Source of the DNA: a virus
IMG/VR virus record: IMGVR_UViG_3300023181_000002
Location: 35,883 to 99,882 of that record
Length of the DNA: 64,000 bases
Strand: one strand, 5' to 3'
Of this stretch, positions 439 through 53,534 are shown piece after piece. The notes under the pieces are model-generated. The model was not told the DNA's origin. It saw only the letters and a list, made by a program, of their open reading frames with translations, and did no database searches. The translations under genes and the position numbers were made by a program. The first letter of the stretch is position 1, and each line of letters begins with the position of its first letter.

Positions 439-475
439 ATTTAAAAACAATTATAAACAATAAATAATCAGAACC

Positions 476-778
476 ATGTACGGAGAAAAATCAACTTATT
501 CGGGAGAAGCAATGCAATCTACTGAGGCTTTAAATCCTCGCTTAGTAAGAATCCTTGAAACGATTCGCCAGTGCAATCGCCGGTATTCAGAAAACGTTCA
601 GCGCATAGCGGTTTCCGCTAACAATATTATGCCGATTATGTCCAACCCGAAAGGTCCCATGAAGGACGAAAAGCCCCAAGGGATTTTAGCGGACATAGAA
701 GTTGAATTGTCATTATTTACAGAGAGAAACAACGACCTTTCATTGATCGCAGAACATCTTATTGAAATTGCTGGATAA
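476..778 (+). CDS. hypothetical protein
   Basis: 100 aa ORF, A-rich leader ending GAACC-ATG. Confidence 0.7.
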   Translation: MYGEKSTYSGEAMQSTEALNPRLVRILETIRQCNRRYSENVQRIAVSANNIMPIMSNPKGPMKDEKPQGILADIEVELSLFTERNNDLSLIAEHLIEIAG

Positions 779-827
779 ATTCACTATGGCACCTGATTAA
801 GTTTGGGTGCCATTAATTAAAATAATT

Positions 828-1088
828 ATGAAACCAAAAGAAAAGAAGCCAGAAACTGTTTTCAGAATTATCAGCAAACAATCCGGAGAAGCGGTTGGTT
901 CTTATAGCAGAGCATACTGCGATGAGTTTGATTTTAATTCTGTCTCAGAAGCAAGACGCGCTAACTGTCACGGCGTGTTCGAGGACAAGGATAAATATAA
1001 GATCGTCAAATACAAAGTTACGTACGAGCTTATAGAGGACGATTGTCAGGAAGAAGAGTCCAGTAAGAAATGGATTTTACAAAAATGA
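828..1088 (+). CDS. hypothetical protein
   Basis: ATG at 828 preferred over GTG 807; TAAGTTTG (-7-like) at 798-805. Confidence 0.65.
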   Translation: MKPKEKKPETVFRIISKQSGEAVGSYSRAYCDEFDFNSVSEARRANCHGVFEDKDKYKIVKYKVTYELIEDDCQEEESSKKWILQK

Positions 1089-1105
1089 CCTTTAAAAAAT
1101 AAATC

Positions 1106-1276
1106 ATGGATCAGGAAGATTTCAATAGAAAAAGGCGTGCTTTAAAAATGCTGTCTCATTCACTTTTCATTCAGGACACTGAAGGCGAAGAAGCGGCTAT
1201 GAAATTTTTAGAGCAATTTAAAAAAGAGGAAGAATTAAGCGTTCTGAATAAAAATACAAAACCCGATGGCATTTGA
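1106..1276 (+). CDS. hypothetical 56 aa protein (not in ORF track)
   Basis: MDQEDFNRKRRALK...PDGI*, fills the gap and overlaps the next start. Confidence 0.55.
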   Translation: MDQEDFNRKRRALKMLSHSLFIQDTEGEEAAMKFLEQFKKEEELSVLNKNTKPDGI

Positions 1277-1718
1277 ATCCCGCATGAAAATTTCCGATGT
1301 GAAAGTATTTGACATGATCGCAGAGATCATCGAGTGGTATTTTCATAATGCGAAAACACCCGACATCGAGAAGATACTCGCTGCGAGGGATCGCCTGGCG
1401 ACGTTGAGCTATAACCTGGCATCGATCAGCGCTGATCTAAAAGAGCGCTATAACGGACAATACTACATCAGAAAGATCGAAACAGCGAAGTCTAAACAAG
1501 GTTTCATCTCGAAAGGGAAGAACATGTCTCAGAGTGAAACTGAAAGCATCATCTCCTCAGCGGAATTCCTGAAAGGGGAGATTGAAGCGGAAGCGGACAG
1601 CTACAAGGTAGATTTGCTCTTAAAGCAGGTTAATAAGATTTTGGATGCCATGGGTCAACGCATCGCGTTTGCGCGTGCTGAGGAGGTTAATTCGAGAAGG
1701 CAGGGGAACAATATGTGA
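1266..1718 (+). CDS. helical/coiled-coil phage protein
   Basis: 150 aa ORF. Confidence 0.7.
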   Translation: MAFESRMKISDVKVFDMIAEIIEWYFHNAKTPDIEKILAARDRLATLSYNLASISADLKERYNGQYYIRKIETAKSKQGFISKGKNMSQSETESIISSAEFLKGEIEAEADSYKVDLLLKQVNKILDAMGQRIAFARAEEVNSRRQGNNM

Positions 1719-1737
1719 AACTTTTTAAACGAACCAT

Positions 1738-2337: not shown

Positions 2338-2377
2338 GGTTGTAGTTTTTTCTTAAAACGCATTTCCATGGGCGAAA
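2328..2377 (-). promoter_or_regulatory. 12-bp perfect hairpin occluding the DUF1508 start codon
   Basis: TTTCGCCCATGG (2328-2339) / CCATGGGCGAAA (2366-2377), plus inner GTTTT/AAAAC stem. Confidence 0.7.
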
Positions 2378-2382
2378 GTTCT

Positions 2383-12785: not shown

Positions 12786-13121
12786 TTATTCAGTGATATT
12801 TTTAACAAAAATTGTCTGCACTTTTAATCCAAACTTTTCGCTGTTGGGATCAGAATCTACATCAATGTCTACACGAACAATCTCTTTCTCTCCATACCAT
12901 CCTCTCCATCCGGTATTAGAGCCATCTTCTGATTCGATCCAAGTACCCGCGCGAAATTTGGACACCGAATGATTTTTAAAGTCACTCATAGTGATCCTGT
13001 CACCTTCCTTGAAAAGATTACCATCTTTCGAAGATATCTCATTCAAGCGTAAATAAGGACCTTCCCACTGCTTTTCAACAGGGACTATATAAGTTCTTTC
13101 CGGATAATTTATCTCTGCCAT
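12786..13121 (-). CDS. hypothetical protein (start MAEINY at 13121)
   Basis: TAG-GAACCAC-ATT-ATG junction defines the start. Confidence 0.7.
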   Translation of the reverse strand: MAEINYPERTYIVPVEKQWEGPYLRLNEISSKDGNLFKEGDRITMSDFKNHSVSKFRAGTWIESEDGSNTGWRGWYGEKEIVRVDIDVDSDPNSEKFGLKVQTIFVKNITE

Positions 13122-13131
13122 AATGTGGTTC

Positions 13132-14670: not shown

Positions 14671-15425
14671 TGCTCAAATTCGATCATACAGTGGTCCGTT
14701 CTATAACTATTCGAAGCGAACGTTGCCGGGTTTCCCCATACCGTCCAAAAGTTGCTTCTTACTTGTGCAAGCGTGGTGCCGTAAGCAGGATTTGCATAAT
14801 AGCAATACACCCAGAATCGTTTCGTGCCTACAGGGAAATTGACCCCGGCAGCAGATTTAAATGCCGTTAAGAAAGCAGCAAAATCTCCTTGCGTTAAATC
14901 TTTCATATTACCATCCATCAGAATCGCATTCACTGTATTAGCCCCGTTAAAAGAAGACTTTGTGGCGGCGTACTCTAAACGGAAATTTCCTGGCGTAGTA
15001 CCCGGAACGATGCGCGTTGTCTGCCCATTGATAATACGTGCCTTTCTGTTGTTGCGAACCACAACGCGAACGCCTCTGTCTAATGTATCAGAATCAGGTA
15101 AGCTACCTCCTGAAGCAACATTCGTAATAGGGAAATTCTGATAAATAGCATAGTAAGCACTAGCCGGATGAATAGCCGGATCAGTTTCTATCTCTACTTT
15201 GAAACGCGCATCAGGGATACTATAAGTCGCATCCGTAATCGGGATATTCAAAATAAAAGTAAGCCCCGAAGGAGGTATCGTGAAACTGCTGCTTACAGGG
15301 ATATTCAAGTCACCCAAAGGTGAACCATCCGTCTTAAGTGCCGTGGCAATTAAATGATAATTACCTCCCGTCGATTTAAGTCCCGTTAGCGTGTCTACCG
15401 ATACAATGATTCTTATAGTATTCAT
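14667..15425 (-). CDS. tail-associated protein sharing an N-terminal domain with 11160..12782
   Basis: IRI...D.LT.L....YHL.A ... IPITDATYSIP in both. Confidence 0.65.
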   Translation of the reverse strand: MNTIRIIVSVDTLTGLKSTGGNYHLIATALKTDGSPLGDLNIPVSSSFTIPPSGLTFILNIPITDATYSIPDARFKVEIETDPAIHPASAYYAIYQNFPITNVASGGSLPDSDTLDRGVRVVVRNNRKARIINGQTTRIVPGTTPGNFRLEYAATKSSFNGANTVNAILMDGNMKDLTQGDFAAFLTAFKSAAGVNFPVGTKRFWVYCYYANPAYGTTLAQVRSNFWTVWGNPATFASNSYRTDHCMIEFEQ

Positions 15426-15892
15426 GACTTGTTCGTAAGTTCAATCGATGAGATTGATATGCTGCCAGATTTTGCAGGCACTAATACATTTATACTCCCA
15501 ACCCCGTCACAACTAACACCTGTCAAGGTTACGACATACGTAGATCCGGCAGCAGCCACCTTCGAAAGATTAAGCGTTAAATGCGCCTGCATCTCGACAG
15601 TAGGTTTTATAGTACCCTGTCCAATCACTTCATCTGTATTGGCAAAGTTGGCAATACGCCATGAAAGCTCCCTAACATCGTCGCCATCCCATAACACATC
15701 CCAAACCTTGTCACTTACTATCGTGACCTTCGAAGGTTTTGGACCTCTCTTGCATTTTTTAAGTGCAGGATTAGGCTCTACAGGGGTTATACCTCCTGCG
15801 TCAACGATCTTCTGGATCGCATCGCTCATCGCCTCTGTCAGGATCACTCCTTCAGGCAATGTAATTGTCGTGGTCACTTTAATTGCTTCCAT
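15422..15892 (-). CDS. tail-associated beta-sandwich protein
   Basis: CKRGP...WDGDDV..LSWRI; C-terminal SISSIELTN. Confidence 0.6.
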   Translation of the reverse strand: MEAIKVTTTITLPEGVILTEAMSDAIQKIVDAGGITPVEPNPALKKCKRGPKPSKVTIVSDKVWDVLWDGDDVRELSWRIANFANTDEVIGQGTIKPTVEMQAHLTLNLSKVAAAGSTYVVTLTGVSCDGVGSINVLVPAKSGSISISSIELTNKS

Positions 15893-15900
15893 CGTGGTTC

Positions 15901-19002: not shown

Positions 19003-20991
19003 TCAATAAGCACGCATAGCCGGACCTAACCTGATCATAGGATAATCAGAAGATTCCTCCCTTTCGCGCTTGCCATTAGAAGGACCTAACTGTATCACGT
19101 AACTCTCTTTTTCGTATTCTTTATTCATGATCGTTACCGCGAGAGACTCTGTCAAGTTAAGCAAATGAAGCACCAAATGGAATGCTGAGGCAACGTCGGT
19201 ATTTCTACGCGTACCCCATTTAATAAGTTCTTCCAAGATTAGAGGCAACGTAATATTCTTGTAGCGGCCTTCCATAAAGTATTTACTTCCAAGGTAAGTA
19301 AGTTCCTGCTTCTCTGTCTGGCTTACTTTGATACCGGGATTACCGTTAATGTAAAACAGACGGTCGCCTGCTTTTTTGTCGCGTAAGAAGTTTGGGAACC
19401 CGTCATGGTTCCACTCATAAAGGGTTTTCTCTACACCGTAAAACAGCATGCCTTTATAAAACTCTTCATAGGCTACCATTAAATCCGGATGATTGCCATA
19501 ATACACGCAGACAGGCATATCTGATTTAATATTCTGTATCGTAGGCTTCCTGTATATAATCATCGCATTACGCGAGTCTTCACCAGTATCCTTGTGATTC
19601 TCGCCTCTGGATTTATATCTATCATCTATGGCTGCTACATGAAGGTTCTTATACGCCTCTGTAGGCATACCTTCCCTGTTTACATACCAGTCTCCATCAA
19701 CACTCTCAACGAATTGCACCTTACCGGTAGGCTTACCATAACCATCGAGTAAATACTCTAACCTGCCTTTGTACCAGTGACTGGCATGATTCATTTTAAG
19801 CCATGCGATATGTTCGTTGATTTGCGCGACATTATAAGCAGACTTTTTATTGTTTGGCAAGAACGCCTCTTCCCATGTAAGCGGGTTTTCGATCAGATCC
19901 TGGTTGTAAGCATCCTGATCACCAACTTTCGATTCACGCGTTTCTTTGATCTGTCTGAGCGCTTTGTCTTCCAAAGACTTTCCAGTCATGTAATCAATAC
20001 AACCAAACAGCACGCGCGTTTTAGGGGTGAAATGTCTTGTCGCATTGTAAGCAGAAGGACTTTCGAAGATTTCCCTATAAGCGGTAGATTTATTGATAAT
20101 CGCATTGGAAGTTCCTCCGATCAGAAACATCCCCCACTGCTCCCCTCCGAGTTTTACAGAAGGTTCATTCTCTGTGATGTAGTTTTTCAAGGAATCCCCC
20201 ACCCAAAGACCAGCTTCTGCCGCGATAGCCAAGTTCACCCGTTTTCCTTTATAAACCCCTGCTTTCGTTTCCTGCCCAATTACATCGAAGCGGCACTGGC
20301 TTACCGGCTGCGCGATCCGGCCAATCTTGTAACCTATCGAGAAAAGATTCTGGTTATCATGAAGCAGATAAATATCATGCACCTTATTACTTCCTACGGG
20401 CTTCTTTCTTTTGAAGATCGGATGAAGATTGATCCATGTATTTTTAAACCAGTCACGCTCGGTATTTACGACTTCATCGTTAGGGTAGGCACACCCCATA
20501 ATCAAATCGTCTTTGAAAACGAAGAAGTACATGCCTACCCCTAAAAGCGTAAATGTGGTCCATGCAATCCCCCTTGGTTTTGCTTCGACATGATTCTTCG
20601 CCATCTTATGCTTCCCGTTAGGAAGTTTCATATAGCGGTTCGCCCATATCTGATTTAATATCTCTTCATCATTATCCCGATAATAAGGATAATCATAATC
20701 GAATGTAGAGCTGTCAGGTTTTTTTAATGGAATCTTGCAGAAGTTGAGATAGAAATAAAGGAACCCATTCAGGTAATGCCCATCAGGAGCTACCCATCCG
20801 AATTGACAGCGCTTGATTTGTTCCTGCCACCACTGATAACCCCAATCGTCTTTGTCGCGCTTGGGCATCGGAGGCACCTTATCCGTTTCATGCAGGGCTA
20901 CAACCGGACGGTATAACACCTGTACAGAATCCGGATGTGTAAATGGATTGCGCTCAAGCTCTTCTATGACGATATCTTCTGCATCTATCAT
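19003..20991 (-). CDS. terL: terminase large subunit
   Basis: W.EQ..RC..G, YFYLNF, KPRGIAWT (Walker A-like), AIAAEAG, GGTS, P.TWEEAF, AAID and TD nuclease motifs of crAss-like TerL. Confidence 0.85.
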   Translation of the reverse strand: MIDAEDIVIEELERNPFTHPDSVQVLYRPVVALHETDKVPPMPKRDKDDWGYQWWQEQIKRCQFGWVAPDGHYLNGFLYFYLNFCKIPLKKPDSSTFDYDYPYYRDNDEEILNQIWANRYMKLPNGKHKMAKNHVEAKPRGIAWTTFTLLGVGMYFFVFKDDLIMGCAYPNDEVVNTERDWFKNTWINLHPIFKRKKPVGSNKVHDIYLLHDNQNLFSIGYKIGRIAQPVSQCRFDVIGQETKAGVYKGKRVNLAIAAEAGLWVGDSLKNYITENEPSVKLGGEQWGMFLIGGTSNAIINKSTAYREIFESPSAYNATRHFTPKTRVLFGCIDYMTGKSLEDKALRQIKETRESKVGDQDAYNQDLIENPLTWEEAFLPNNKKSAYNVAQINEHIAWLKMNHASHWYKGRLEYLLDGYGKPTGKVQFVESVDGDWYVNREGMPTEAYKNLHVAAIDDRYKSRGENHKDTGEDSRNAMIIYRKPTIQNIKSDMPVCVYYGNHPDLMVAYEEFYKGMLFYGVEKTLYEWNHDGFPNFLRDKKAGDRLFYINGNPGIKVSQTEKQELTYLGSKYFMEGRYKNITLPLILEELIKWGTRRNTDVASAFHLVLHLLNLTESLAVTIMNKEYEKESYVIQLGPSNGKREREESSDYPMIRLGPAMRAY

Positions 20992-21275
20992 TAACGCGTC
21001 AATGTACCTGTGATTAATAGATTCTCTACGATACCATTTTCGAAATTCACAATGATGCGTTTGCTGATAGAAGCGGTATCAATTCCTTGAGCCAGGCTTT
21101 CTCCGGTGTAAGTGGTTTGCACTCTGTCGCCTAAATCTGTTGGGGATGTACAATGACAAGCGCCATTCGTACTGCGGATGCGCGGAGCATCTTCTACTTT
21201 AAAGAAATCTACTGTAACAGGCTGTCCCGTCTTAACGGTGCCAAAATTCAGATGCTGGGTGGTGAAATAACTCAT
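20991..21275 (-). CDS. DUF1573-like Ig-fold protein
   Basis: LNFGTV..G..V.V.F, ACHCT, K.I.V, L.ITG. Confidence 0.65.
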   Translation of the reverse strand: MSYFTTQHLNFGTVKTGQPVTVDFFKVEDAPRIRSTNGACHCTSPTDLGDRVQTTYTGESLAQGIDTASISKRIIVNFENGIVENLLITGTLTR

Positions 21276-21284
21276 TTGTGGTTC

Positions 21285-21653: not shown

Positions 21654-21667
21654 TTTCAGGTGGGTTA

Positions 21668-21798
21668 TAAAAGCAGGAGAGCCTGCATTTTTAAGTGCAA
21701 GCTCCTACGAAAGTTTCCGAACCACCTAGAAACCTTTTTTCTTAAAGAGCACTCCACCCATCGTGAAGTGCCGTAATTCGGATACTATCGCGTGCTTG
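21668..21798 (-). ncRNA. putative 3'UTR-derived three-hairpin small RNA with terminator-like end
   Basis: Stems 21749-21771, 21710-21736, 21679-21704; each has a G.U pair only on the minus strand; U-run follows. Confidence 0.6.
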
Positions 21799-24651: not shown

Positions 24652-24680
24652 GATATTTTTATTTGTGGTTCTAAAAAATA

Positions 24681-27193: not shown

Positions 27194-27224
27194 GGTATTT
27201 TATTGTTTTCGTGGTTCTTGGAAT

Positions 27225-27263
27225 CAAATTTATATAGAGCGCAATAGATAATTCGTCTCACAA
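27225..27263 (-). promoter_or_regulatory. putative phage late promoter TTGTGAGACGA-N20-TAAATTTG
   Basis: Bacteroidota -7 element preceded by repeated 11-mer; upstream of scaffold/MCP operon. Confidence 0.65.
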
Positions 27264-42500: not shown

Positions 42501-42771
42501 TAAGTTTTTCACTCCATGAATTAAGTCCGGTATTAGCAAGCGAACCTAATTTGTTGCCTAAAATGGCCCCTGCTGGTCCAAGATAGTACCCGCCAACAAG
42601 AGATAATACCGGACTCAAGGCTTTATCAACTACAGAACCGAAAACGTTGGATGTACCGTCAGTATTCTGCCCGGAAATTGCCAAACGCGTTTTGCCCCAC
42701 CAATTACTACTAAAATTTCGTAATCTTGGCTGACTTGTAATCTGAGGGGCTATTGTATTAAATAATGCCAT
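39508..42771 (-). CDS. ejected cargo protein with peptidoglycan-binding domain and FAxGG motifs
   Basis: Gly-zipper N-terminus; IKEFQ...VDGLYGPQT..A PG-binding motif; three FA(D/G)GG. Confidence 0.65.
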   Translation of the reverse strand: MALFNTIAPQITSQPRLRNFSSNWWGKTRLAISGQNTDGTSNVFGSVVDKALSPVLSLVGGYYLGPAGAILGNKLGSLANTGLNSWSEKLTKGTSTQIQSIATNNKEEGNDALINILSQVAGAAGGAAKSSNLFASSSKPADSGFTTSEAGKSFDSLIRGNLAQSNGFSSAPVAAATSNGFGGAVGALAKPSFLDALKANAGQSQQNPLLSNVTNLLTQYSQNQNQNMINPGNANQFQMNSTVGMGQTNSILEPASGNSNITWLDDQKKTKQVGTSTLPNPIYGSAIDDKFGYPTLNGFADGGKTADGAIIYDKNDKTTEDYYMLPKVSIENTPVEHMIKSLSIGAARFGERIFDQESNLKQEQIMRSPLSLDKKKALLGDHIYDELLTHKDFQGDQNFADGGKPKPKPYITSNPNDPRIRAYNDSAALYNNYNQVTAALIKAGYNNGQVKDKETLLSNLFNVASKILPSLPTGNYHKETDPWKQAMNVVHNFPQLTGLTRKGTLNQVDDFVAGVINKNIPKQLYSDSIKPSGVTNYFKDIKPEELANVFATDDNKKLIPAKISSRREAIQDIRTVAKYDNVKPNQQVIYQPTQKTVVPTVTPTRKEQFAQRLQTPVAPQRVVMPNVDPIENTDQIQMVLPDIQVPVYVAPQIPVVQPLQSLPSALPGETMDAYQRRLAGLRKSNPNTYKTNTNQFKQPVMEQDNFAGGGKVKYQTRAGAKPDIKEFQNSYNEWATANGLPAIKVDGLYGPQTSAAVTNWNATNPGREVFVESLNKGNIGGSIAKAITGLDLQPLLGSANKPSIASAIRGYDSKGNPVTETSPLSYGNGVNQVSFGGQNPLQNLVAVNTGTPSSTTVVAANQSGLTPSQRQNLFGNIADLATAGVGAVISMNNPIPRYKPTTEYTNMLQDVYARKNQGFTAAEQAAVNQGLQNNYALGVNTIKQVAGGGASQGAVLGALGQLSSQQNQGTLNAALQSDQLQRQNYANYQKVVQGDLTLDQNIFAQDQQAALAQRTAGVGLLDAGLQNIADRNQFNAQYGAGTTYDQLQQAQLSGAQKQNQLADLYPQIYAQALRDSLNKKTPTTVKI

Positions 42772-43900
42772 CTTCTTGTTTTTTCAAAAGAAATTTCTTG
42801 TTATTATACTTACTAATAAAATCTACATTTAAAATTTCTTCCACATTCCAACCTGCTTGATATCTAAAATACAAAGTGCCCGGTTTAATGTTTAACCTGT
42901 CAGACCACTGAGATATTGTCATTTTTAACCCATTCAACTCTAAAAATATATTATCTCTCTTATTATTAGCTTGCTGTTTTGATGTAGCCCATCTACAATT
43001 ACTCAATTCGTAATTACCATTTACATCAATTCTATCAATGCTATGATTTTTAGATGGAGCGGCACCCATATCTAAATAGAAATTATCAAAAGACTCTAAC
43101 CATCTATCGCAAACACTTATACCTCTATACCCATAATGAATATAACGCTCATCAGAGTCATTATAACACCTTGACTTCATCTTTGACCAAGAAGAATACT
43201 CTTTACTGAAAGACATATTATGTTTAATATTTATAACTTTCATTAAAGCATTTTTGTAGCATCCACATGATTTACAGTCCCCACTAACTATTGAAGCTAT
43301 ATTAGACTCAAATTCCTTACCACATTTACATAAAAATACTGCACGTCTATTGTTATTACTATATCTTTGACTCTCCCTTAAATAAATACAGGAACCTACT
43401 AAATCTCCATGCTTATAATGTATAAATTGAGAAGATCCTCTTTGTTTAGCTTGTACACACCCACAGGAGGTAGTATGCTCTCTTTTGACATTTAATATAA
43501 AGGCCGTAAATTCATTACCACAACGACACCTAAATAAAGCTTTCCTTCTCTTACTATCACCGTCAACATCTTGCAAGAAAACACACTTGTCTCCTAGTGT
43601 TTCACCTGGATAATAAAGGTGATTATAACTCACTCTCCTTCTCTTTGATTCATCAAGTAAACGAGCTTCTATTTTAAAACTTCCAAACTCAGGATTGCAT
43701 TCAAGAACGCCACTTTTTAAAGACTCATACAAAGGAGATTCATCCGTAAACCAATTTTCACCGAATTCAGACACAAACTTATTTCGCTCATCTTTGTCCT
43801 TTATTTGCTTACTAAGTAAATAATCAGAATGTTTAATCAGATTTTTAACTTGATTAACACCTAAGTCTGGATAAGTAATTTTATAAGTAGCTAATATCAT
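42758..43900 (-). CDS. HNH homing endonuclease with extra N-terminal domain
   Basis: Two C.CG...SCGC repeats, W..MK.RC, YG.RGI.VC.RW, HSIDRID.NG.YE..NCRWAT..Q.NN. Confidence 0.9.
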   Translation of the reverse strand: MILATYKITYPDLGVNQVKNLIKHSDYLLSKQIKDKDERNKFVSEFGENWFTDESPLYESLKSGVLECNPEFGSFKIEARLLDESKRRRVSYNHLYYPGETLGDKCVFLQDVDGDSKRRKALFRCRCGNEFTAFILNVKREHTTSCGCVQAKQRGSSQFIHYKHGDLVGSCIYLRESQRYSNNNRRAVFLCKCGKEFESNIASIVSGDCKSCGCYKNALMKVINIKHNMSFSKEYSSWSKMKSRCYNDSDERYIHYGYRGISVCDRWLESFDNFYLDMGAAPSKNHSIDRIDVNGNYELSNCRWATSKQQANNKRDNIFLELNGLKMTISQWSDRLNIKPGTLYFRYQAGWNVEEILNVDFISKYNNKKFLLKKQEDGII

Positions 43901-43911
43901 ATATGTGGTTC

Positions 43912-46900
43912 TTAGTATTGATTCGGAGAATTAATTCGGAACTTAAAATCGCTTGACGTGAAACTTACCTGAGTATTTTTACCGTCAATAAGCTGCAAAG
44001 AATTGTTAACCGTAATACGAACTTTCAAATAAGTGCTCTTCAACCGCTCTTTCTCCATTAGAGGATCAAACTCATTGGATGGTCCTGACAAGAGCGATCC
44101 ACTCCATTTATATCTATAATCATTATGAACAATATTAGCTGCCTCTAATTCTGTAAGAATAACCTCATGGATATTATCCTGAGCTTGGAATAATATTTTA
44201 GAAATCCTTTCCCATCCTTCATAGTTAACATTTAACCATATAGAATCGAATGTTTTCCTGAAATTCGGCGCAGGATTAACAATATATTCCAAAATAGTTT
44301 CTTTAAACTCTCTGTAATAATTGCCATATAAGCCATGATTCGCCAGGAATATCTCGTGATGTAACCCCGATTTAGGACTTGAAGTTAATAAAAATCTACG
44401 AATATTGAAATAAAATGGCGCGATGTCGTACGAATACCCATGGAAGTTACCAGCATCCTTGTTAAAAATTAAAGAAAATGAAGATAGCTCATCTTCACGG
44501 TTGTAATCATTTACCGGATTGCTATTCTGTTGCCCTTCGTAAATGAATGACGTAAGAACTTCATTGTTTTCAGTATCCAAGGCAGAAATCACATCTATAA
44601 ATTGTCCTTCCTGATGCGATATATTTCTGTCAAAATAAATTGACTTTTCAACTACAGGATCAGATATGGAATTAGTGTCAGAAGCTGACTGAATTCCTGC
44701 TTGACTAAATATAACAATCTTACCCATTCTGGCATCAAAAAAGCCAAAATTATCGTTAAACACCCATGCACTATTTTTATGTTGAGTGCCATAGATTTTA
44801 CTCACAGGACGAACACCACCAAACACTGCTCCACTGGAGATTTGTAAAGCACCAGCATCTGTCGCAATAGCCCTGTCTGCTTGAGTAAGCAAAGAGAAAG
44901 TTCCCTTTTCTTGAATTATATAAATGTAATTAAATGCCGGAATTAACCTTTGTATAGCTCCAAACTCCCCTGTAGCGAATCCGTAATCGGATGTTAACTT
45001 TTGACGGAAAGAATCTTCAAGTTCTCCATCAATTTTCTTGGGAGAAAATCTTATAATATTAGGTTGGTAATCAACAATTTTTATCGTACTTGGCTTAGGA
45101 AAATAAAATTTAGTATTCTCCTCTAAAAGAAGGACCTCATTATAAGACCACGACTCAGTCTGCTCAGAATTTATACCATTTGAAAGCTGTATTGCTCCAT
45201 TATCACACGCTACATCCTGTGGGTAAACGCAGTTAGCAGCAAACCTTCTCCCATATAAAAGCGCTAGGTTATAACGGCTTTCATTGGGAATAATATGAGA
45301 AAGTGAATAATTAGGATATTTTCCATTAAATTTAGAACAATCCATATACTCTGGATATAGGCGGACGTAATCAAATAGATTCACGTAACAATCTCCGCCC
45401 CATATCTCAACGCCTGAAAAGACATACGCTGTCAAATTTCCCTGTCCATCAACTTGCTTTTCAGCCTGGTCAAGTATTGCCTGAGTAATTGGCTGGTAAT
45501 GCCCTGTTGAAAAATACCTTCTTGTCTCAAGTGAGCTTTCATCAGCACCTGTGTAATAATTTGGTGGCGTAACAAGCATATTCGCTGTCCGGTATGTAGA
45601 CTTGGAATTACTATCCTCAATCGCATCAACGGATTCAAAATCCTGTAATTTCATAATTACAGAATAAGGTTGCTGAGTAGAAGAGAAAGGACTTGCAGGA
45701 TTTATTATTTCATCAGGATTTACAGATCCATCCTGAAAAGCGGAATTCCAGAACAAAGTTGCCCAAGTGTCTGCCCGGTAGTCATAAATATCAGAAGCTT
45801 CCGGATCGAATTCTGCTTTACTATATATTCCAAATTTTCCTTTTGTATGAAGGAAAGCGAATTTTATACGAGACTTATCTCCTATTTTAGGGCGACCATA
45901 GTTTAATAATGTTAAATATTTAGGCCATGACAACGGCAAGCTTCTATAGCTTTTAGTATAAGCATGGTTCTTTCTGTCTCCCGTAATAGCTTTCTTCTCA
46001 GAGTATGCTTTATGCGCAAAACCTATATGCTGCATCTCACCGGAAAGATATCCTTCAGGCAATGCTTGCTCTATGAGAATATCAGGAGAATGATAATTAA
46101 AATAATGCGCAGCACTTAAACCGTCTTCCTGTCCATCATTATCCTGTTTCTTTTTATAATTTGATCCTAAAGCTCCGCTATAATTGTGACCATTGGGAAC
46201 TGATCCGTTTGCATATTCGGGTCTATATTCGTTAGAATACCAAAGCGTAGGCTGGACAAAACGATCATTATCAGTATCAGTTTTCCCATTACTTGTCGTG
46301 TAGCAATTTATAAGCATACCCTGATTGGCAACTCTTCTTATACGCTCTGTTCTGACAATCTTAAATCCGGAAATGTTCAACTTTCCGAATTTATCATACA
46401 GCAAATTTTTAGGAATAACAATATTCGAGAACACAGCACCCATGGCTTTTAAATCGAACTGCCCATCGTTAGCCTGGCGCGTCAAAGTCCAGTCCGTAGG
46501 ATTACCCTGAGCGTCTTTCGTATCGTACTGCTGAGGAAAGGTATAATCCGTAATATGCTGCACAAACAAAGGATTCCCTTTTCGATCTATAAAAAGCAAT
46601 CCAAAAGGCTGCGTTTCTCCACGGAAATATCCTTTGTAAAGGTGATTGAATAACTGGCCTTTATAATTGGTATAATCGTCAACACAATTATAAACCTCTT
46701 TATTATCTCCAAAATTATTGATTACAAACTCTTCATCATAGGTAAAGGTGTTCGTGATCGGATCATTGTCATTACGCCCTGTAACCGGGTTAAAAACAGC
46801 ACTGAAAGGAGGCTCCAATGTATTATCTGCCCTAAAATATTTTATCTTAGGGGATATTGTTACACTAGACAAGTCAATAGCTAGGTCGGGAAGTGTTCTT

Positions 46901-48033
46901 ATATTAGCATCCCATGTACGTCCCTCCTGTTGTGTGGTTGTCTCTACTTCAAGCTGCGTTTCAAATCGCTGATTTAATTCATCCTGCGTGATACCAATAC
47001 CTGTGTGACCTATCAGATCAACCAATAAAACCGGCGATGTTATATCGTAAATTTTATATTGTGTTGCTTCCTGGAATGCTTTCGAAGATTCGTGATATAC
47101 ATATCCGATAGCGATTTGATCCCAACGCGTATCTATGCCATCAATAATCCACTTCTGCCCCTCCTCTGTCATCACATTGGAGATATTCATCGTCCGGTTG
47201 TGATGATTAGTTTTATAGGCATTATTGTATGTAGTAGCGCCAACAGTAATATCTCCATCAAGTCTTTCTGTCGTAACAAATACTGGACGCGTCAAATGGG
47301 ACCAAACCGAAGAGTGTCCCGTTTTAGAAATGTATTTACATACGAGCTGATATTGCCCGGACTTTAGCTTCCCTGGAATACGCTTCCAGAATTTCATCTT
47401 TGGGAATATCAAATCCATGCGCTCGTCAAAAGCATGAACAGAAAGAGATTTTGGGTAGGTTGATCCCGATGTGCAAGAGTCAACCTGATTATGATATGTA
47501 GTGCCATCTGCTTTATAAAACAGCGGCAGATTAATTACTCTTTTTTGATTATATCCGTCAACCCAATATACCCGGTCAATGAATTCATTCTCGTAGACAT
47601 TAAATCCATGGATATATTTGTCAATGTTAAAATTTAACAAGTCTCCATTCGGGTCGTTTCTGTCATTGAAAAGAGTAGTGTATACAGCATATCCTTCTTT
47701 GTAGACGTTATCATTGACTGTTAAAAATCCAATCTCTGAATTTGTTTTATTCGTGCTGAATATTACAGCACCTTTCGTCGTTTCGATTGATCCTATCGGC
47801 TGATATCCTTCACAAAGAGAAAATGAAAAAGAATTCCCTTTAGCATTTGTAAAAGCGCGGGTCTTTCCATCCTTCACATTCTCATCCAAAGACTTATTTA
47901 CATTGTCTGTTCTGTTATGGCTTAGACGACCACCAATTGCATACCGATACGAACTATTGGGTTGTTCGTGCGGATCAATGTCGGTTAACATCCCATTGAC
48001 AAAAGTATTCGTGAAAGTCTGTGATGTGGCCAT
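43912..48033 (-). CDS. muzzle / tail stabilization protein
   Basis: 1373 aa; NTF..GM.TD, YWVDG.N..R.IN, YFRGE....G, WGGD.Y, YGTQH. Confidence 0.8.
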   Translation of the reverse strand: MATSQTFTNTFVNGMLTDIDPHEQPNSSYRYAIGGRLSHNRTDNVNKSLDENVKDGKTRAFTNAKGNSFSFSLCEGYQPIGSIETTKGAVIFSTNKTNSEIGFLTVNDNVYKEGYAVYTTLFNDRNDPNGDLLNFNIDKYIHGFNVYENEFIDRVYWVDGYNQKRVINLPLFYKADGTTYHNQVDSCTSGSTYPKSLSVHAFDERMDLIFPKMKFWKRIPGKLKSGQYQLVCKYISKTGHSSVWSHLTRPVFVTTERLDGDITVGATTYNNAYKTNHHNRTMNISNVMTEEGQKWIIDGIDTRWDQIAIGYVYHESSKAFQEATQYKIYDITSPVLLVDLIGHTGIGITQDELNQRFETQLEVETTTQQEGRTWDANIRTLPDLAIDLSSVTISPKIKYFRADNTLEPPFSAVFNPVTGRNDNDPITNTFTYDEEFVINNFGDNKEVYNCVDDYTNYKGQLFNHLYKGYFRGETQPFGLLFIDRKGNPLFVQHITDYTFPQQYDTKDAQGNPTDWTLTRQANDGQFDLKAMGAVFSNIVIPKNLLYDKFGKLNISGFKIVRTERIRRVANQGMLINCYTTSNGKTDTDNDRFVQPTLWYSNEYRPEYANGSVPNGHNYSGALGSNYKKKQDNDGQEDGLSAAHYFNYHSPDILIEQALPEGYLSGEMQHIGFAHKAYSEKKAITGDRKNHAYTKSYRSLPLSWPKYLTLLNYGRPKIGDKSRIKFAFLHTKGKFGIYSKAEFDPEASDIYDYRADTWATLFWNSAFQDGSVNPDEIINPASPFSSTQQPYSVIMKLQDFESVDAIEDSNSKSTYRTANMLVTPPNYYTGADESSLETRRYFSTGHYQPITQAILDQAEKQVDGQGNLTAYVFSGVEIWGGDCYVNLFDYVRLYPEYMDCSKFNGKYPNYSLSHIIPNESRYNLALLYGRRFAANCVYPQDVACDNGAIQLSNGINSEQTESWSYNEVLLLEENTKFYFPKPSTIKIVDYQPNIIRFSPKKIDGELEDSFRQKLTSDYGFATGEFGAIQRLIPAFNYIYIIQEKGTFSLLTQADRAIATDAGALQISSGAVFGGVRPVSKIYGTQHKNSAWVFNDNFGFFDARMGKIVIFSQAGIQSASDTNSISDPVVEKSIYFDRNISHQEGQFIDVISALDTENNEVLTSFIYEGQQNSNPVNDYNREDELSSFSLIFNKDAGNFHGYSYDIAPFYFNIRRFLLTSSPKSGLHHEIFLANHGLYGNYYREFKETILEYIVNPAPNFRKTFDSIWLNVNYEGWERISKILFQAQDNIHEVILTELEAANIVHNDYRYKWSGSLLSGPSNEFDPLMEKERLKSTYLKVRITVNNSLQLIDGKNTQVSFTSSDFKFRINSPNQY

Positions 48034-48036
48034 GTA

Positions 48037-48663: not shown

Positions 48664-48666
48664 TGA

Positions 48667-49631: not shown

Positions 49632-50281
49632 TATGTCGTAAGCCAAAAATCGTTTAAACAGGCCATTACATCAGCCTTTGTTAATATTTCTCTTTCTTGC
49701 ACCAATACGTGATCAAGCCTCTCTTCTGCATCTTTCCTGTTGCCAAGTAAAAGTTTTTGAAGAGCAGCCGCCTCTTTTGCATCCGAAGCAGACTTCCTGT
49801 GATCGAATGGCTGTTTAAGTCCATCCCAAATTCGGTCTATAATAGCAAGGTACTGAATTTTAGATTCTAATACAGGAACCCTGGCAATCTTTGTTACTTT
49901 CTTGCACGCATCAAATATCGCATTGGAAGCTTCGTCACGTTTAAGCTCTATCGGAGTTTTCGGTATAGGTCTTTTATTTGCATCGAGCGCCGGTGGTTGC
50001 GGTGGCTCCGGATAAGGAACTGCTCTTTTAGGGCTTCGCTGATCGGTCTTTGTGACAGGGTCATAGTATTTAGTATTTCCTACTTCTTCCCATACCATTT
50101 CATGACGTTCCTTCGGATTGGTTATCGTCGCGTAAGGGCTTGCAGCCCATCCGTAGAAAACGATGTAATAAATACCATGAATGCCGTATGTATCATAGAT
50201 TTTTTTGAAGGCGTTAACCATCATAATTTGATCCATGATAAATAAAGGCTGTCCGGTTAAAGGGTCAATGTGAACTACCAT
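49631..50281 (-). CDS. conserved crAss-like protein, possible terminase small subunit
   Basis: F.KIY...YIV......SPY N-terminus and helical C-terminus. Confidence 0.4.
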   Translation of the reverse strand: MVVHIDPLTGQPLFIMDQIMMVNAFKKIYDTYGIHGIYYIVFYGWAASPYATITNPKERHEMVWEEVGNTKYYDPVTKTDQRSPKRAVPYPEPPQPPALDANKRPIPKTPIELKRDEASNAIFDACKKVTKIARVPVLESKIQYLAIIDRIWDGLKQPFDHRKSASDAKEAAALQKLLLGNRKDAEERLDHVLVQEREILTKADVMACLNDFWLTT

Positions 50282-50520
50282 ATAATATCCTTATCAGTCT
50301 TTTTAGCTTGATAAATTGCTTCCTTTAAACTCATTTCCGAGACAATACCTCCATCAACTTTTCTAAGAAGCCTATCCATAGGCACGCCTTTTATTTTCTT
50401 AGTTATCGCATACCCTTTCGGAGGCATTAAATTATCAGGTTTAAATTTATCTTCAACCTGAACATATTTGGCCGCAAGTGGCAATGCTAAAACTGACTTC
50501 AAAAAATCTAATCTTTTCAT
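50275..50520 (-). CDS. small protein with Tat-like N-terminus
   Basis: MKRLDFLKSVLALPLAA (single Arg). Confidence 0.5.
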   Translation of the reverse strand: MKRLDFLKSVLALPLAAKYVQVEDKFKPDNLMPPKGYAITKKIKGVPMDRLLRKVDGGIVSEMSLKEAIYQAKKTDKDIIW

Positions 50521-50532
50521 AAGTGGTTCTTT

Positions 50533-50694
50533 TTAATAGTTTCTAGTCGGCTCAAACCAATCATTTAATCCCTTCTGATCCTGCTTCTCAGAAATCCTAT
50601 CAAATACATCTTCTTCAGGTTTCGCCTCCGGCTTGCTTTCGTAACGAGGTTGACCCCGTTTAGCAGTGAACTTTTTGTAGTGGGATTTTGCCAT
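50533..50694 (-). CDS. hypothetical 53 aa protein (not in ORF track)
   Basis: MAKSHYKKF...PTRNY*, fills the operon gap. Confidence 0.55.
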   Translation of the reverse strand: MAKSHYKKFTAKRGQPRYESKPEAKPEEDVFDRISEKQDQKGLNDWFEPTRNY

Positions 50695-50696
50695 GG

Positions 50697-50984
50697 TTAA
50701 ATGGTTTCATAAGTTTTATGAAAAATATCAGGCTTACATGGGTAAAATTCTCCAGAAACTCCTTTAATAATCCAGTCTCCAAAACTAGCTTTCATTGTTC
50801 CTTCTAAAGTCTGTATGCCTAAATAACCTTGCATATTTATATCTTCATAATATGCACCTTTCAACCATTCGGTCGAAACTTCAGATTCTCCATGGATAAA
50901 AATTATTGCTTCATTAACAGAATCCTTATTATCGAGTAATTGAACTGCTTCAATAACTACCGGCTTCTTTCTGTAAAATCCCAT
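50697..50984 (-). CDS. conserved phage protein (YRKKPVVIEAVQ family)
   Basis: TLEG.M.A..GDWIIKGV.GEFYPCKPDIF..TYE. Confidence 0.85.
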   Translation of the reverse strand: MGFYRKKPVVIEAVQLLDNKDSVNEAIIFIHGESEVSTEWLKGAYYEDINMQGYLGIQTLEGTMKASFGDWIIKGVSGEFYPCKPDIFHKTYETI

Positions 50985-50987
50985 AAT

Positions 50988-53534
50988 CTATACTGTTTGT
51001 GGTTCTTGTTGCTTATTCTGTTGCGCCATCTTCAAAGCTTCATTCTCCTGGCGAAGCCTTTCAAGTTGCGCCTCCAAGCCGGCCTGATAAGATTGACTGT
51101 CTTTATTTAACTCGTGATCAAGAAGCTTATCCTGCGTTTTATTGGTATCATTGATGTCATTCAAAGCACCTTTCGCATCTTCACGTTTACGCTGCTCGTC
51201 GTTTTTCAACTGCTGAACGTTCGCTGCGGACTGTGCCTGAATCTGCGCTACATCCACAGGTATCTGATTTTTCTGCTGCATGGTCTGAGCCTGCAACTGT
51301 GCCTGCTGACTTGCGGCCTGCTGTGCTTGCTGCTGTGCTGCCTGAAGCTCCTCTTTTGCTTTACGGAAAATAGATAGCGCCTCGGCAGGATTATCCGTGT
51401 AAAGGATATTAATCAAAGGCTCCAGCATATCGATACCGCCCGAAGAAAGCACCTGCATCACCGCGTTATCTAAGATAGCCTTTTTATCCTTCAATGCCGC
51501 ACCGGATTCCAAATAAATATCAAAATCCGCAACATTTAAATCTTTACTCAATTTCAAGAACTCGCGCTCTCCATCAGAGAGTTTCACATTGATATATCCT
51601 TCACGCGCATACACATGCTTGCTCACATCGCCAACCCTTTGAAGCACCTGGTTCATGAAAAGGTTATGCTCGTAGAATTTCTCCACTTTAAGCTGACTCT
51701 GCGCGGCAATGTTCATCTGCTGCTTAGCGCCAGACTCGTAAGGATTAGATATGCCCTGCACCTGTTCACTCGTGCCGATGATACGGTTATATCCTTCGTT
51801 AAGAATCCCGATCAAGGTAAGCATATTATTGATCTCGTTAATATGGTTCCCCATCTGAAGCATCGTTAAATGCTTTTGGGTATACTCGTTAGAGCCTACC
51901 ATCTTCGAGCTGTTATACATCAGGATACCCGTCTTTTTAGCGCTATACAGCGCATCCTTAGCGTGACCCGATCCAATGATCGCTTCATCGATTAAAAGTG
52001 CCGCATTAAGCCCTGAAAGGTTGACAATATCCTCGATACGGTTAAACAGCGTATTAGTCATCCTTGCAAAGTTCTCTCCGACCAAAACCAAAGACTTTTC
52101 CCGGCTGATCTGCGCTACAATAGGCATGCCTACATAACGCTCTTTTACCGGTTTTACCGTAGCATATTTATAACGGCCCACATCAAGCAGCGTCCCATGC
52201 CCGATACGTGTCGCTTCCCATAATTCTCTTTTGTGTTTCTCTTCAGTATATCCCTTCGGAGGTTTCTCATTCGGATCAATCTCGATCCAGTTGGCGATCA
52301 TCGTACGATCATCATCAATCGTCTTACGCCACTGCTCCACCTCTCGAGCGGTAGTCGGCTTCCCGTTCATCTCTACCAGGTATTTCTTAGGCACAGACAC
52401 CTTGAAAAACATCTTCTGTTCAAGGATCGTATTGGAAAGCGCATAAGCGCCTTTCTGAAAAGGATAAAAAACGTTTCTGAAATAATCTGCCCTGCCGAAC
52501 TGTGGATTAGTATGTTCTGAAAAGTTATTCGCTACAGAGGTGAGCACATTGGTTTTGTAGTATTCTGAAAAGTATGGCCTCGAAGGGTCGTAAATGCATT
52601 CAACACCATCTCTCAATTTCTTTGCCGCGTCAAGAAGTCCCTTTGCGCCGGTGCCGGTATCGAGAATATCCCCGTATTTATCCATCACCTCTGTAAGCGT
52701 TAGATAATCAATCACTGATGCCGCGACAAGTCCCGAATCTTCGAAGGTTTCTATGCCGCGTTTTCCCACCATGCGCACATTCGACGGGTGTACATGCTTC
52801 ACAACCACTTCACCATTGACTACATCCACAAAGGCGAACTCTGAATTGATGTCGAATTTATTATCAAAACAGTCTCTGCCTAATTTTAACAAATTTTGCT
52901 CATTATTGACATGCTGAAGGATTTTAAACAAGATCAGCTCCATCTCATCAGAAGCAAATAATCTATCCAGTACCTCGTCAATAGGTGCCGCTAAGCTGAT
53001 GCTTTTATCTTCAAGGAAATCCAGATTCACACCATCCTGAGAAGCAGCCTGCTGTGAGAGAAGATTCTTTAAAAGTTTCTTCGCGTTGGATTTATCTTTT
53101 TTAAGCTTTTTAAAGCTGTACTCGTTAGAGATATTCTTAACGGTATATTTCAACGGCTGCTTAACGATCTCGCCTAACGTGTGCGATTTAGCGGCATAAA
53201 AGAAATGGTTATCGCGCATCGGGGTTAAACCCTTGTAGCCGTATGCCATCTCCGCAGCAACATAATCTTTCGGGTCGATCTTTCCCTTGGCAACATTGAA
53301 AAGGTGAGGCGTGTTCGGGTTATCATCGTCGTAGATGCCTGATTCATTGAATAACATCGAATCACTAAGCTGCTGAATCTGGTTCAGCCACAGCGTATCA
53401 TCTTTCTCGTATTCCTTCTTCCAGATCAGCAAAGGAGGATCAAGCATCCGCTTACGCTTGCCAGGGAATGTACCATCATCCCTGATCTGTATCTGGGTTA
53501 GCTCGTCGTAAAGTGTTTGCTGTAATGGGTCCAC
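50988..53534 (-). CDS. portal protein
   Basis: 848 aa; LGE...QP, WEATRIG, IG.SEQ.QG, DFDIY, Q-rich C-terminal coil. Confidence 0.85.
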   Translation of the reverse strand: MDPLQQTLYDELTQIQIRDDGTFPGKRKRMLDPPLLIWKKEYEKDDTLWLNQIQQLSDSMLFNESGIYDDDNPNTPHLFNVAKGKIDPKDYVAAEMAYGYKGLTPMRDNHFFYAAKSHTLGEIVKQPLKYTVKNISNEYSFKKLKKDKSNAKKLLKNLLSQQAASQDGVNLDFLEDKSISLAAPIDEVLDRLFASDEMELILFKILQHVNNEQNLLKLGRDCFDNKFDINSEFAFVDVVNGEVVVKHVHPSNVRMVGKRGIETFEDSGLVAASVIDYLTLTEVMDKYGDILDTGTGAKGLLDAAKKLRDGVECIYDPSRPYFSEYYKTNVLTSVANNFSEHTNPQFGRADYFRNVFYPFQKGAYALSNTILEQKMFFKVSVPKKYLVEMNGKPTTAREVEQWRKTIDDDRTMIANWIEIDPNEKPPKGYTEEKHKRELWEATRIGHGTLLDVGRYKYATVKPVKERYVGMPIVAQISREKSLVLVGENFARMTNTLFNRIEDIVNLSGLNAALLIDEAIIGSGHAKDALYSAKKTGILMYNSSKMVGSNEYTQKHLTMLQMGNHINEINNMLTLIGILNEGYNRIIGTSEQVQGISNPYESGAKQQMNIAAQSQLKVEKFYEHNLFMNQVLQRVGDVSKHVYAREGYINVKLSDGEREFLKLSKDLNVADFDIYLESGAALKDKKAILDNAVMQVLSSGGIDMLEPLINILYTDNPAEALSIFRKAKEELQAAQQQAQQAASQQAQLQAQTMQQKNQIPVDVAQIQAQSAANVQQLKNDEQRKREDAKGALNDINDTNKTQDKLLDHELNKDSQSYQAGLEAQLERLRQENEALKMAQQNKQQEPQTV

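What the first reader, a model, noticed from the sequence alone, without database searches (positions are those of the whole stretch)
471..51005. GAACCAY motif placed 0-17 nt before start codons, often directly after the upstream stop
Seen on the minus strand (GAACCAC, spacer to ATG): 13125-13131 (3), 15894-15900 (1), 21278-21284 (2), 24665-24671 (13), 27211-27217 (17), 43905-43911 (4), 50523-50529 (2), 50999-51005 (14). Plus strand GAACCAT: 471-477 (overlapping the ATG) and 1731-1737. In four cases the junction is stop-GAACCAC-N1-4-ATG, so the motif is almost the whole spacer. C/T variation at the last base fits G.U pairing with GUGGUUC. It is not an SD or a TAnnTTTG element. Inference: a target for the RNA above, a translational repressor protein, or a termination-reinitiation signal. 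A few intragenic copies also exist (8453, 10073); my scan was manual.
Basis: partly seen in the sequence, partly recalled or inferred. Interest (0 to 1): 0.8.

Follow-up and report, generated by a model that had tools for sequence, protein, structure and literature searches.

The report
Start-codon tag GAACCAC in crAss-like phage
A seven-letter word, GAACCAC, sits just before the start codon of about 15 genes of an uncultured crAss-like phage and its two closest relatives but not in related phages or candidate hosts, so it is most likely a phage-specific tag that puts these genes under a common control of protein synthesis, by a factor not yet identified.

Summary
In the full 99.9-kb phage genome, GAACCAC is the most enriched 7-mer in the 25 nt before ORF starts (11 of 20 copies, 0.36 expected). 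A test that needs no gene calls gives 10 of 20, against a mean of 0.24 for 139 same-composition permutations. Single-mismatch variants are not enriched. The GAACCAT cases belong to a general AACC-ATG start context, not to G.U wobble. A 96-kb relative shows the same enrichment. Five orthologous genes keep the heptamer (35/35 bases) while flanks (37% identity) and spacers drift. The next relatives (Dyadobacter and Spirosoma proviruses), four host genomes of that family and 301 Bacteroidota genomes lack it, so it is not a host initiation signal, a Shine-Dalgarno site or a host promoter. Its complement lies in a conserved RNA behind the auxiliary capsid gene, but buried in a stem (opening cost 6-11 kcal/mol against -9 for the duplex), which weakens the small-RNA idea. 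My best reading (0.45) is a start-associated sequence like the SAS of cluster K mycobacteriophages: an mRNA operator read by a lineage-specific trans factor. The scan has noted AACCA-type start motifs on other viral DNA before. No RNA data were available.

The parts
13125..13131 (-). GAACCAC, 3 nt before the ATG of a 111-aa ORF (12786-13121), directly after the TAG of the upstream gene
15894..15900 (-). GAACCAC, 1 nt before the ATG of a 156-aa ORF (15422-15892), directly after TAA. The ortholog in relative G001 keeps it with a 5-nt spacer.
21278..21284 (-). GAACCAC, 2 nt before the ATG of a 94-aa ORF (20991-21275). Orthologs in G001 (spacer 0) and L018 (spacer 6) keep it.
24665..24671 (-). GAACCAC, 13 nt before the ATG of a 339-aa ORF (23632-24651). 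The G001 ortholog has a 5-nt spacer; the G621 provirus has AAACCAT at the same place.
27211..27217 (-). GAACCAC, 17 nt before the ATG of a 312-aa ORF (26255-27193) and 7 nt downstream of a Bacteroidota-type -7 box, TAAATTTG (27225-27232). It is therefore at or near the 5' end of this mRNA.
43905..43911 (-). GAACCAC, 4 nt before the ATG of an HNH endonuclease gene (42758-43900) that relatives lack
50523..50529 (-). GAACCAC, 2 nt before the ATG of an 81-aa ORF (50275-50520). The G001 ortholog keeps it.
50999..51005 (-). GAACCAC inside the last codons of the portal gene, 14 nt before the ATG of a 95-aa ORF (50697-50984, phrog_419)
471..477 (+). GAACCAT overlapping the ATG of a 100-aa ORF (476-778). 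It is a hybrid with the general AACC-ATG start context.
1731..1737 (+). GAACCAT abutting the ATG of a 143-aa ORF (1738-2169)
57164..57170 (+). Sense-strand GAACCAC after a hairpin, 86 nt before the ATG at 57257. In G001 the matching copy sits 13-14 nt before a gene start, behind the same ACTGGGATAATT hairpin tail.
21654..21798 (-). Structured RNA (three-way junction plus terminator) behind the auxiliary capsid gene. Its strand GGUGGUUCGG holds the only sense-strand intergenic complement of the motif (plus-strand GAACCAC at 21719-21725), paired in stem P1.

Best explanation
GAACCAC is a start-associated sequence: a short, strand-specific element in the mRNA, within the ribosome's landing zone. 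About 70% of copies end 0-6 nt before the AUG and the rest 13-17 nt before it.

It tags about 15 genes of the replication and structural modules as one regulon. These include many lineage-specific small ORFs, an inserted HNH endonuclease gene and five conserved structural-module genes.

It is read by a sequence-specific trans-acting factor peculiar to this phage lineage, most likely an RNA-binding protein that has not been identified. A bound factor so close to the AUG would most simply block 30S binding. That would give translational repression or timing, as T4 RegA does.

Shown: position, specificity, conservation, restriction to one lineage, and absence from candidate hosts. Inferred: action at the RNA level, the existence and nature of the factor, and the direction of control.
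For: (1) Extreme positional enrichment in two genomes: 11 of 20 and 9 of 24 copies with called ORFs, and 10 of 20 and 11 of 24 without gene calls, against about 3% for same-composition permutations.

(2) Exact-word specificity: 1-mismatch variants are not enriched. No position upstream of the word is conserved. This fits recognition of 7-8 bases rather than a promoter or a composition effect.

(3) Purifying selection: in five orthologous pairs the heptamer is 35/35 identical, the 15 nt upstream are 37% identical, and spacers change (2/2, 17/15, 13/5, 2/0, 1/5). A third relative has a spacer of 6.

(4) The word is anchored to the start codon, not the upstream stop. It stays 0-3 nt from the ATG in gaps of 15-78 nt, and it also lies inside upstream coding sequence.

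(5) It marks a subset only (about 9% of genes). It is missing from the most conserved capsid-like gene, the auxiliary capsid gene and the portal gene, and from both early-looking arms. So it is not needed for translation as such.

(6) It is lineage-specific. It is absent from the next relatives (proviruses G624, G619, G479). G621 and G002 instead show AAACCAT(G) and L008/L009 show ATCACnnCGTAAAA. Many sites changing together points to co-evolution with a trans factor.

(7) It is not a host feature. In 301 Bacteroidota genomes the density is at most about 1.6 per 100 kb, against 9-10 in the phage. In four Spirosomataceae host genomes it is 0.04-0.2 per 100 kb against 6 (the pattern with a leading A). 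Only 5 of 30 sampled host matches look like gene starts.
Against: No factor has been found. There are no Pfam or PHROG hits for RNA-binding domains among the motif genes or among ten lineage-specific proteins. No RegA homolog and no S21 were found, and the RegA search had no positive control. 35 proteins are shared only with G001, so phyletic profiling does not narrow the choice.

There are no expression data of any kind. Seven bases is short for a protein operator. The host is unknown, so a host factor or a host-specific ribosomal contact cannot be excluded.

At site 27211 the word lies at the predicted 5' end of the mRNA, and several sites follow terminator hairpins. A 5'-end function would explain that equally well.
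Confidence: 0.45

Rival explanations
1. 5'-end signal. The heptamer marks the first bases of mRNAs, made either by transcription initiation (an initiator-type minimal promoter for a phage-modified or phage RNA polymerase) or by endonucleolytic processing of polycistronic RNA. This would give very short leaders of 7-13 or 20-24 nt.
For: At the 312-aa gene, four lineages keep TAnnTTTG-N6-7-heptamer, which places the heptamer at about +1. Some sites follow terminator-like hairpins: genome 24090, G001 67190 and 35871, window 57164. In L008/L009 the analogous motif follows terminators. Upstream flanks are A/T-rich, and ATTTAAA is the top 7-mer in G001.
Against: Only 1 of about 15 sites has a -7 box, and no upstream position is conserved. 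Seven bases give too little information for a promoter. A -10 or -35 role is excluded by geometry, because the start would fall inside the gene. No sigma factor gene was found in G000 or G001. [quoted passage not shown] In F. johnsoniae most transcripts are leadered.
Confidence: 0.18
2. Antisense target. The heptamers are seed targets of the structured RNA behind the auxiliary capsid gene, a 3'UTR-derived small RNA that pairs over the initiation region late in infection.
For: The only sense-strand intergenic GUGGUUC in G000 and in G001 lies in this RNA. The RNA is stable (z = -5.9), ends in a terminator, and shows compensatory changes. In G001 the site flanks favour CGAACCACC, which extends pairing to 9 bp. 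Provirus G621 has, at the same place, CAUGGUU, the perfect complement of its own enriched AACCAUG. G624, G619 and G479 have neither an enriched motif nor such an RNA.
Against: The anti-motif is paired in stem P1 in all three relatives. Opening it costs 5.9-10.7 kcal/mol, while the 7-bp duplex gives -9.0. In G000 the preferred flank is A, which does not extend pairing. AACCATG is a general start context, so the G621 match is weak as covariation. G002 and L008 have motifs but no anti-motif RNA at that place. Three close relatives count as one evolutionary event.
Confidence: 0.12
3. Direct ribosome signal. The heptamer is a non-Shine-Dalgarno enhancer that contacts the host ribosome itself (rRNA or a ribosomal protein such as bS1) and boosts initiation or re-initiation of poorly placed cistrons.
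For: It sits where an SD would be, in a host group that does not use SD. It is A/C-rich and G-poor like good Bacteroidota leaders. Other notes of this scan report AACCA-type start motifs in unrelated viruses; these notes are unchecked.
Against: It is not enriched at host gene starts in any genome sampled. It is absent from the closest proviruses of the same host family. The Spirosoma 16S rRNA has no GUGGUUC; its only near match is the universal, buried GUGGUUU near nt 937, and its 3' tail is the canonical ...GGAACACCUCCUUUCU. The perfect complement of GUGGUUU, which is AAACCAC, is not enriched (1 of 11). The most conserved capsid genes lack the motif.
Confidence: 0.13
4. DNA-level site. It is an oriented intergenic binding site for a phage DNA-binding protein, like the stoperators of cluster A mycobacteriophages, or a scar left by gene-cassette exchange.
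For: It is oriented with transcription and is mostly intergenic. Relatives are integrated proviruses. Many tagged genes are accessory ORFs, and one is a mobile HNH gene.
Against: Seven bp is far too short for a specific DNA operator in a 7-Mb host background. The word stays next to the ATG even in long gaps. It is conserved at core orthologs with drifting flanks, which is unlike a recombination scar. No repeat family surrounds it.
Confidence: 0.05

Closest known systems
Start-associated sequences (SAS) of cluster K mycobacteriophages (Pope et al. 2011, PMC3203893; read)
   Same: A short asymmetric word, in one orientation, a few nt (3-7) before the start codons of a subset of genes (93 sites in six genomes). 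It sits on genes of different families, is nearly absent from host genomes, and is conserved across related phages.
   Different: The SAS is 13 bp (GGGATAGGAGCCC) and contains the SD core AGGAG. It is confined to the non-structural half of the genome, and half the copies carry 17-bp inverted repeats (ESAS). Here the word has 7 bases and no SD core, the host group ignores SD, the word is in both the replication and the structural modules, and there is no extended element.
T4 RegA translational operators (from my own knowledge)
   Same: One trans factor recognises a short RNA word at or next to the AUG of many unrelated phage mRNAs and blocks initiation.
   Different: No RegA homolog was found (the search had no positive control). 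The RegA word is A/U-rich and overlaps the AUG. Here structural-module genes are tagged as well.
Kozak-like A-3 context of Bacteroidota initiation (Baez et al. 2019, PMC6847099)
   Same: SD-independent start context. This phage group and a Spirosoma host show A-rich, G-poor leaders with pyrimidines at -1 and -2 and AACC-ATG enrichment.
   Different: That context has a fixed register and is general to the host. GAACCAC has variable spacing, an exact word, and occurs in only 9% of genes of one phage lineage.
Seed-target regulons of 3'UTR-derived small RNAs, and the phage P1/P7 c4 antisense RNA (from my own knowledge)
   Same: A stable RNA carrying a short complement to sites at the ribosome-binding regions of several genes.
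   Different: Here the complement is locked in a stem and pairing would be only 7 bp. Expression is unknown.

Membership tests
SAS (cluster K mycobacteriophages) | Conserved asymmetric word within a few nt of start codons, in one orientation, on a subset of genes | tested here: met
SAS (cluster K mycobacteriophages) | Rare or absent in host genomes | tested here: inconclusive
   Not enriched in 301 Bacteroidota genomes or in 4 Spirosomataceae host genomes. The true host is unknown.
SAS (cluster K mycobacteriophages) | Sequence GGGATAGGAGCCC with the SD core AGGAG | tested here: not met
   The word is GAACCAC; no SD is seen before genes
SAS (cluster K mycobacteriophages) | Restricted to non-structural genes; ESAS inverted repeats on half the sites | tested here: not met
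   8 of 14 sites lie in the structural arm; there is no conserved upstream element
Shine-Dalgarno / anti-SD pairing | Complementary to the 3' tail of 16S rRNA and present before most genes | tested here: not met
   The 16S tail of a related host is GGAACACCUCCUUUCU, with no GUGGUUC. The motif is on about 9% of genes.
sRNA seed-target regulon | Complement present in a stable, terminator-ended transcript | tested here: met
   (the transcript itself is inferred)
sRNA seed-target regulon | Seed single-stranded and accessible | tested here: not met
   P(unpaired) is 3e-8 to 7e-5; opening costs 6-11 kcal/mol; the consensus structure agrees
sRNA seed-target regulon | Seed and targets covary between lineages | tested here: inconclusive
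   G621 has CAUGGUU against AACCAUG at the same locus, but AACCAUG is a general context. Contigs of intermediate relatives could not be fetched.
T4 RegA-type operator | RegA-family protein (PF01818) encoded | tested here: not met
   (no positive control rang, so this is weak)
Bacteroidota host promoter | TAnnTTTG -7 box at fixed distance (and a -33 TTTG) | tested here: not met
   Only site 27211 has a -7 box; no upstream position is conserved
Termination-reinitiation signal | Fixed relation to the upstream stop codon | tested here: not met
   Gaps range from -4 to 78 nt, and the motif also lies inside upstream ORFs or after a promoter

The most novel reading that the evidence does not exclude
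GAACCAC is the codeword of a phage-private, Shine-Dalgarno-independent layer of translational control in an SD-blind host. It is read either by a phage factor or, after remodelling, by the capsid-gene 3'UTR RNA. It belongs to a wider, undescribed class of AACCA-type start tags that unrelated viruses have evolved repeatedly.
Probability: 0.15. Interest if true: 0.85.

Novelty: new variant of a known kind. Interest (0 to 1): 0.6.

Why it matters
Bacteroidota ribosomes ignore Shine-Dalgarno sequences, and how their phages set the level and timing of each protein is essentially unknown. This applies also to the crAss-like group, which is very abundant in the human gut. No post-transcriptional signal turned up for crAss-like phages in my searches of the literature held here.

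This heptamer is a clean, exact and conserved word on a defined gene set, so the question can be tested directly with reporters, pull-downs and toeprints.

It is also a second, sequence-unrelated example of the unexplained start-associated sequences of mycobacteriophages. That suggests such tags are a general phage strategy rather than a curiosity.

In practice the word helps to fix start codons and to find small genes in this lineage.

Tried and rejected
- RNA evidence: no RNA holder listed. The one run that holds the stretch is a DNA leaf-litter metagenome and probably the source; read laying was not used.
The 4-6-kb contigs of intermediate relatives (P0002-P0004, P0009) could therefore not be read.
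- GenBank phages: no DNA or protein match.
- Rfam: no hit in the window.
- tRNAs: none in G000, G001 or G002.
- Literature: full-text searches for the word and for crAss ribosome-site motifs gave nothing relevant.
- Genome-contig search with the 7TM protein: no relative found.
- Pattern searches for the RNA element in viral contigs found only G001 and L018; the other hits were chance.
- A search with the alignment of the terminase-like 662-aa protein gave only L018 and distant phages.
- The RNA duplexfold ranking of all start regions against the 3'UTR RNA was uninformative: unrealistic long-loop duplexes, and motif genes did not separate.
- Rejected readings: Chi-like or restriction-type site (copies cluster at starts and are not spread through genes); pairing with downstream coding sequence (no local complement seen); paralogous gene heads (N-termini and flanks are unrelated).
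- Phage S21, sigma factor in G000/G001 and RegA: none found.

Full report
WHAT THE DNA IS. The window is bases 35883-99882 of a 99,882-bp virus record with 127-bp direct terminal repeats. Pfam finds a crassvirus muzzle protein (43912-48033), a P22-type portal (50988-53534) and a 2628-aa polyvalent protein (28770-36656). Outside the window lie a sliding clamp, a DnaB helicase, a Dam methylase and HNH nucleases at genome 22-38 kb. No gene has a Shine-Dalgarno sequence. Leaders are A-rich and G-poor, with pyrimidines at -1 and -2. That is the Bacteroidota type of initiation region (Baez et al. 2019, PMC6847099). The only run holding the DNA is a leaf-litter metagenome.

Every listed site is present with the stated spacer. 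GAACCAC is the most enriched of all 7-mers in the 25 nt before ORF starts: 11 of 20 copies against 0.36 expected. I had added two short ORFs by hand. With the unedited list the count is 9 of 161 windows, against 0.11 in shuffled windows. A test without gene calls gives 10 of 20, while 139 permutations of the same letters average 0.24. The runners-up in that test are one-base shifts of the word. Four further sites lie in the replication module outside the window. Copies ending 0-6 nt before the ATG make up about 70%, and a second group lies at 13-17 nt.

THE WORD IS EXACT. None of the 21 one-mismatch variants is enriched, apart from GAACCAT at 3 of 25. In those three the T belongs to, or abuts, the ATG. 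AACCATG is a general start context in this phage (7 of 16), in its relatives and, more weakly, in a Spirosoma host. The proposed C/T wobble is therefore not supported. Nothing upstream of the word is conserved except A/T richness. The base before it is mostly A here and mostly C in the relative.

RELATIVES. The auxiliary-capsid-like protein (21799-22965) has very few homologs. A complete 96-kb relative, G001 (72% identity), shows the same enrichment: 9 of 24 with called ORFs and 11 of 24 without gene calls. A 4.8-kb contig, L018, has the word before the same 94-aa gene. Five orthologous pairs keep the heptamer at 35/35 bases. The 15 nt before it are 37% identical, and the spacers differ. Many other tagged genes have no ortholog in the other phage. 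One of these is an HNH endonuclease gene, and another is a 95-aa gene whose tag lies in the last codons of the portal gene.

THE WORD IS LINEAGE-SPECIFIC. Portal homologs led to syntenic proviruses in 8 of 401 Spirosomataceae genomes. One source names two of them Dyadobacter, and one lies in Spirosoma sordidisoli TY50.
- G624, the closest (58% portal identity), has no GAACCAC enrichment (0 of 5 copies) and no other strong word.
- G619 and G479 have none either.
- G621 and G002 favour AAACCAT(G). G002 adds a 20-nt AAAACCTTATTAAAACC-ATG that is nearly confined to the provirus.
- L008 and L009 use ATCACnnCGTAAAA.
.
At the 312-aa and 339-aa orthologs, G621 has AAACCAT where G000 has GAACCAC.

NOT A HOST SIGNAL. 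GAACCAC-N0-4-ATG occurs 5-80 times per genome in 301 Bacteroidota, at most about 1.6 per 100 kb and similar to the reversed-word control. The phage has 9-10 per 100 kb. In the three genomes with the largest excess, only 5 of 30 sampled matches look like gene starts; the rest are coding sequence. Four Spirosomataceae host genomes have 3-14 copies of AGAACCAC-N0-4-ATG in 7-8 Mb, against 6 in the 100-kb phage. In 400 kb of Spirosoma DNA, 0 of 43 copies precede starts. The Spirosoma 16S rRNA has the canonical 3' tail and no GUGGUUC. The true host is unknown, so this remains a sample.

NOT A PROMOTER BY GEOMETRY. A -10 or -35 role would place the transcription start inside the tagged gene. Only one site (27211) has a host-type TAnnTTTG box. 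There the word begins 6-7 nt after the box in four lineages, so at that gene it lies at about +1 of the mRNA. Some other sites follow terminator-like hairpins. A 5'-end function, by initiation or by processing, therefore remains a serious rival. G000 and G001 encode no sigma factor; G002 does. For the crAss-like phage phi14:2, early transcripts showed no common motif, and middle and late genes use host polymerase with a -35/-10-like promoter (bioRxiv 10.1101/2020.03.07.982082).

NOT REINITIATION. The word follows the start codon, not the stop. It stays next to the ATG in gaps of 15-78 nt. It lies inside upstream ORFs at ATGA overlaps and before the portal stop. It also occurs behind a promoter.

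THE ANTISENSE RNA. The gap behind the auxiliary capsid gene folds stably (-54.5 kcal/mol, z = -5.9). Its consensus structure in three relatives is a three-way junction plus terminator, with compensatory changes. It holds the only sense-strand intergenic GUGGUUC in both complete genomes. However, GGUGGUUCGG is the 3' strand of the long stem P1. Opening it costs 5.9-10.7 kcal/mol, and a 7-bp duplex returns -9.0.

One point in its favour: provirus G621 has, at the same place, a stem containing CAUGGUU, the complement of its enriched AACCAUG. The three proviruses without a word have no such RNA. Since AACCAUG is a general context, and G002 and L008 lack such an RNA there, I rate this model at 0.12.

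MECHANISM. The exact word, its flexible but short distance to the AUG, its presence on a minority of genes, its absence from the main capsid genes, and its replacement in sister lineages all fit an mRNA operator read by a lineage-specific trans factor. Repression by occlusion of the start region is the simplest mode. No candidate protein emerged.

COMPARISON WITH KNOWN SYSTEMS. The closest described thing is the start-associated sequence of cluster K mycobacteriophages. It is a 13-bp asymmetric word 3-7 bp before the starts of a subset of genes, absent from the host, and its function is still open (PMC3203893). The present word shares the behaviour but not the sequence, the SD core, the module restriction or the extended repeats. 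It works like an SAS but is not a member of that family.

EARLIER SCAN NOTES. Earlier notes of this scan report AACCA-type start words in unrelated viruses. I did not check them.

Noticed in passing
G624:C3 ~955-1034 kb; G621:C14 ~504-594 kb; G003:C1 ~88-184 kb; G619:C4; G479:C1: Syntenic crAss-like gene sets (portal, muzzle, polyvalent protein, capsid genes) lie inside megabase contigs of Dyadobacter and Spirosoma genomes, in 8 of 401 Spirosomataceae sampled. This suggests integrated proviruses in a phage group usually regarded as non-lysogenic. Integration borders and integrases were not examined.
   Followed up: partly
G002 (= G003:C1), e.g. G002 61193, 63763, 65499, 75163, 88619: A 20-nt word, AAAACCTTATTAAAACC-ATG, abuts at least 12 start codons and is nearly confined to the provirus. 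The same element encodes a sigma-70 region-2 protein (G002:C1:87896-88099). This could be a phage sigma promoter giving leaderless mRNAs.
   Followed up: partly
genome 2937, 3201, 6512, 8741 (outside the window; L070): A second start-proximal word, AAACTTACTC, directly before the ATG of four genes in the left arm. It is often preceded by AAACCTTTAAAA, a word also seen at window 58190 and related to the G002 word.
   Followed up: no
L008 1858, 5034, 7608, 10592; L009 12408: In a distant relative, ATCACnnCGTAAAA lies 0-8 nt before start codons, three times directly after terminator hairpins.
   Followed up: partly
window 27225-27232 (-): A Bacteroidota -7 promoter box, TAAATTTG, 7 nt upstream of the heptamer in the divergent gap before the 312-aa gene. 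The box and its spacing are conserved in four lineages (TAAATTTG or TAAGTTTG).
   Followed up: yes
window 21654-21798 (-): In the capsid-gene 3'UTR RNA, stem P1 pairs the anti-motif strand with a degenerate motif copy. G621 shows the same design in reversed order. The role of this RNA is unexplained.
   Followed up: partly
window 42758-43900 (-): An HNH endonuclease gene is inserted between the muzzle gene and the 1087-aa gene. It is absent from G001 and the proviruses, and it carries the heptamer.
   Followed up: partly
window 19003-20991 (-): The 662-aa protein is the best conserved of the module (77-41% identity in relatives, 20-25% in many other phage contigs). It is probably the large terminase, although Pfam gave no hit.
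   Followed up: no
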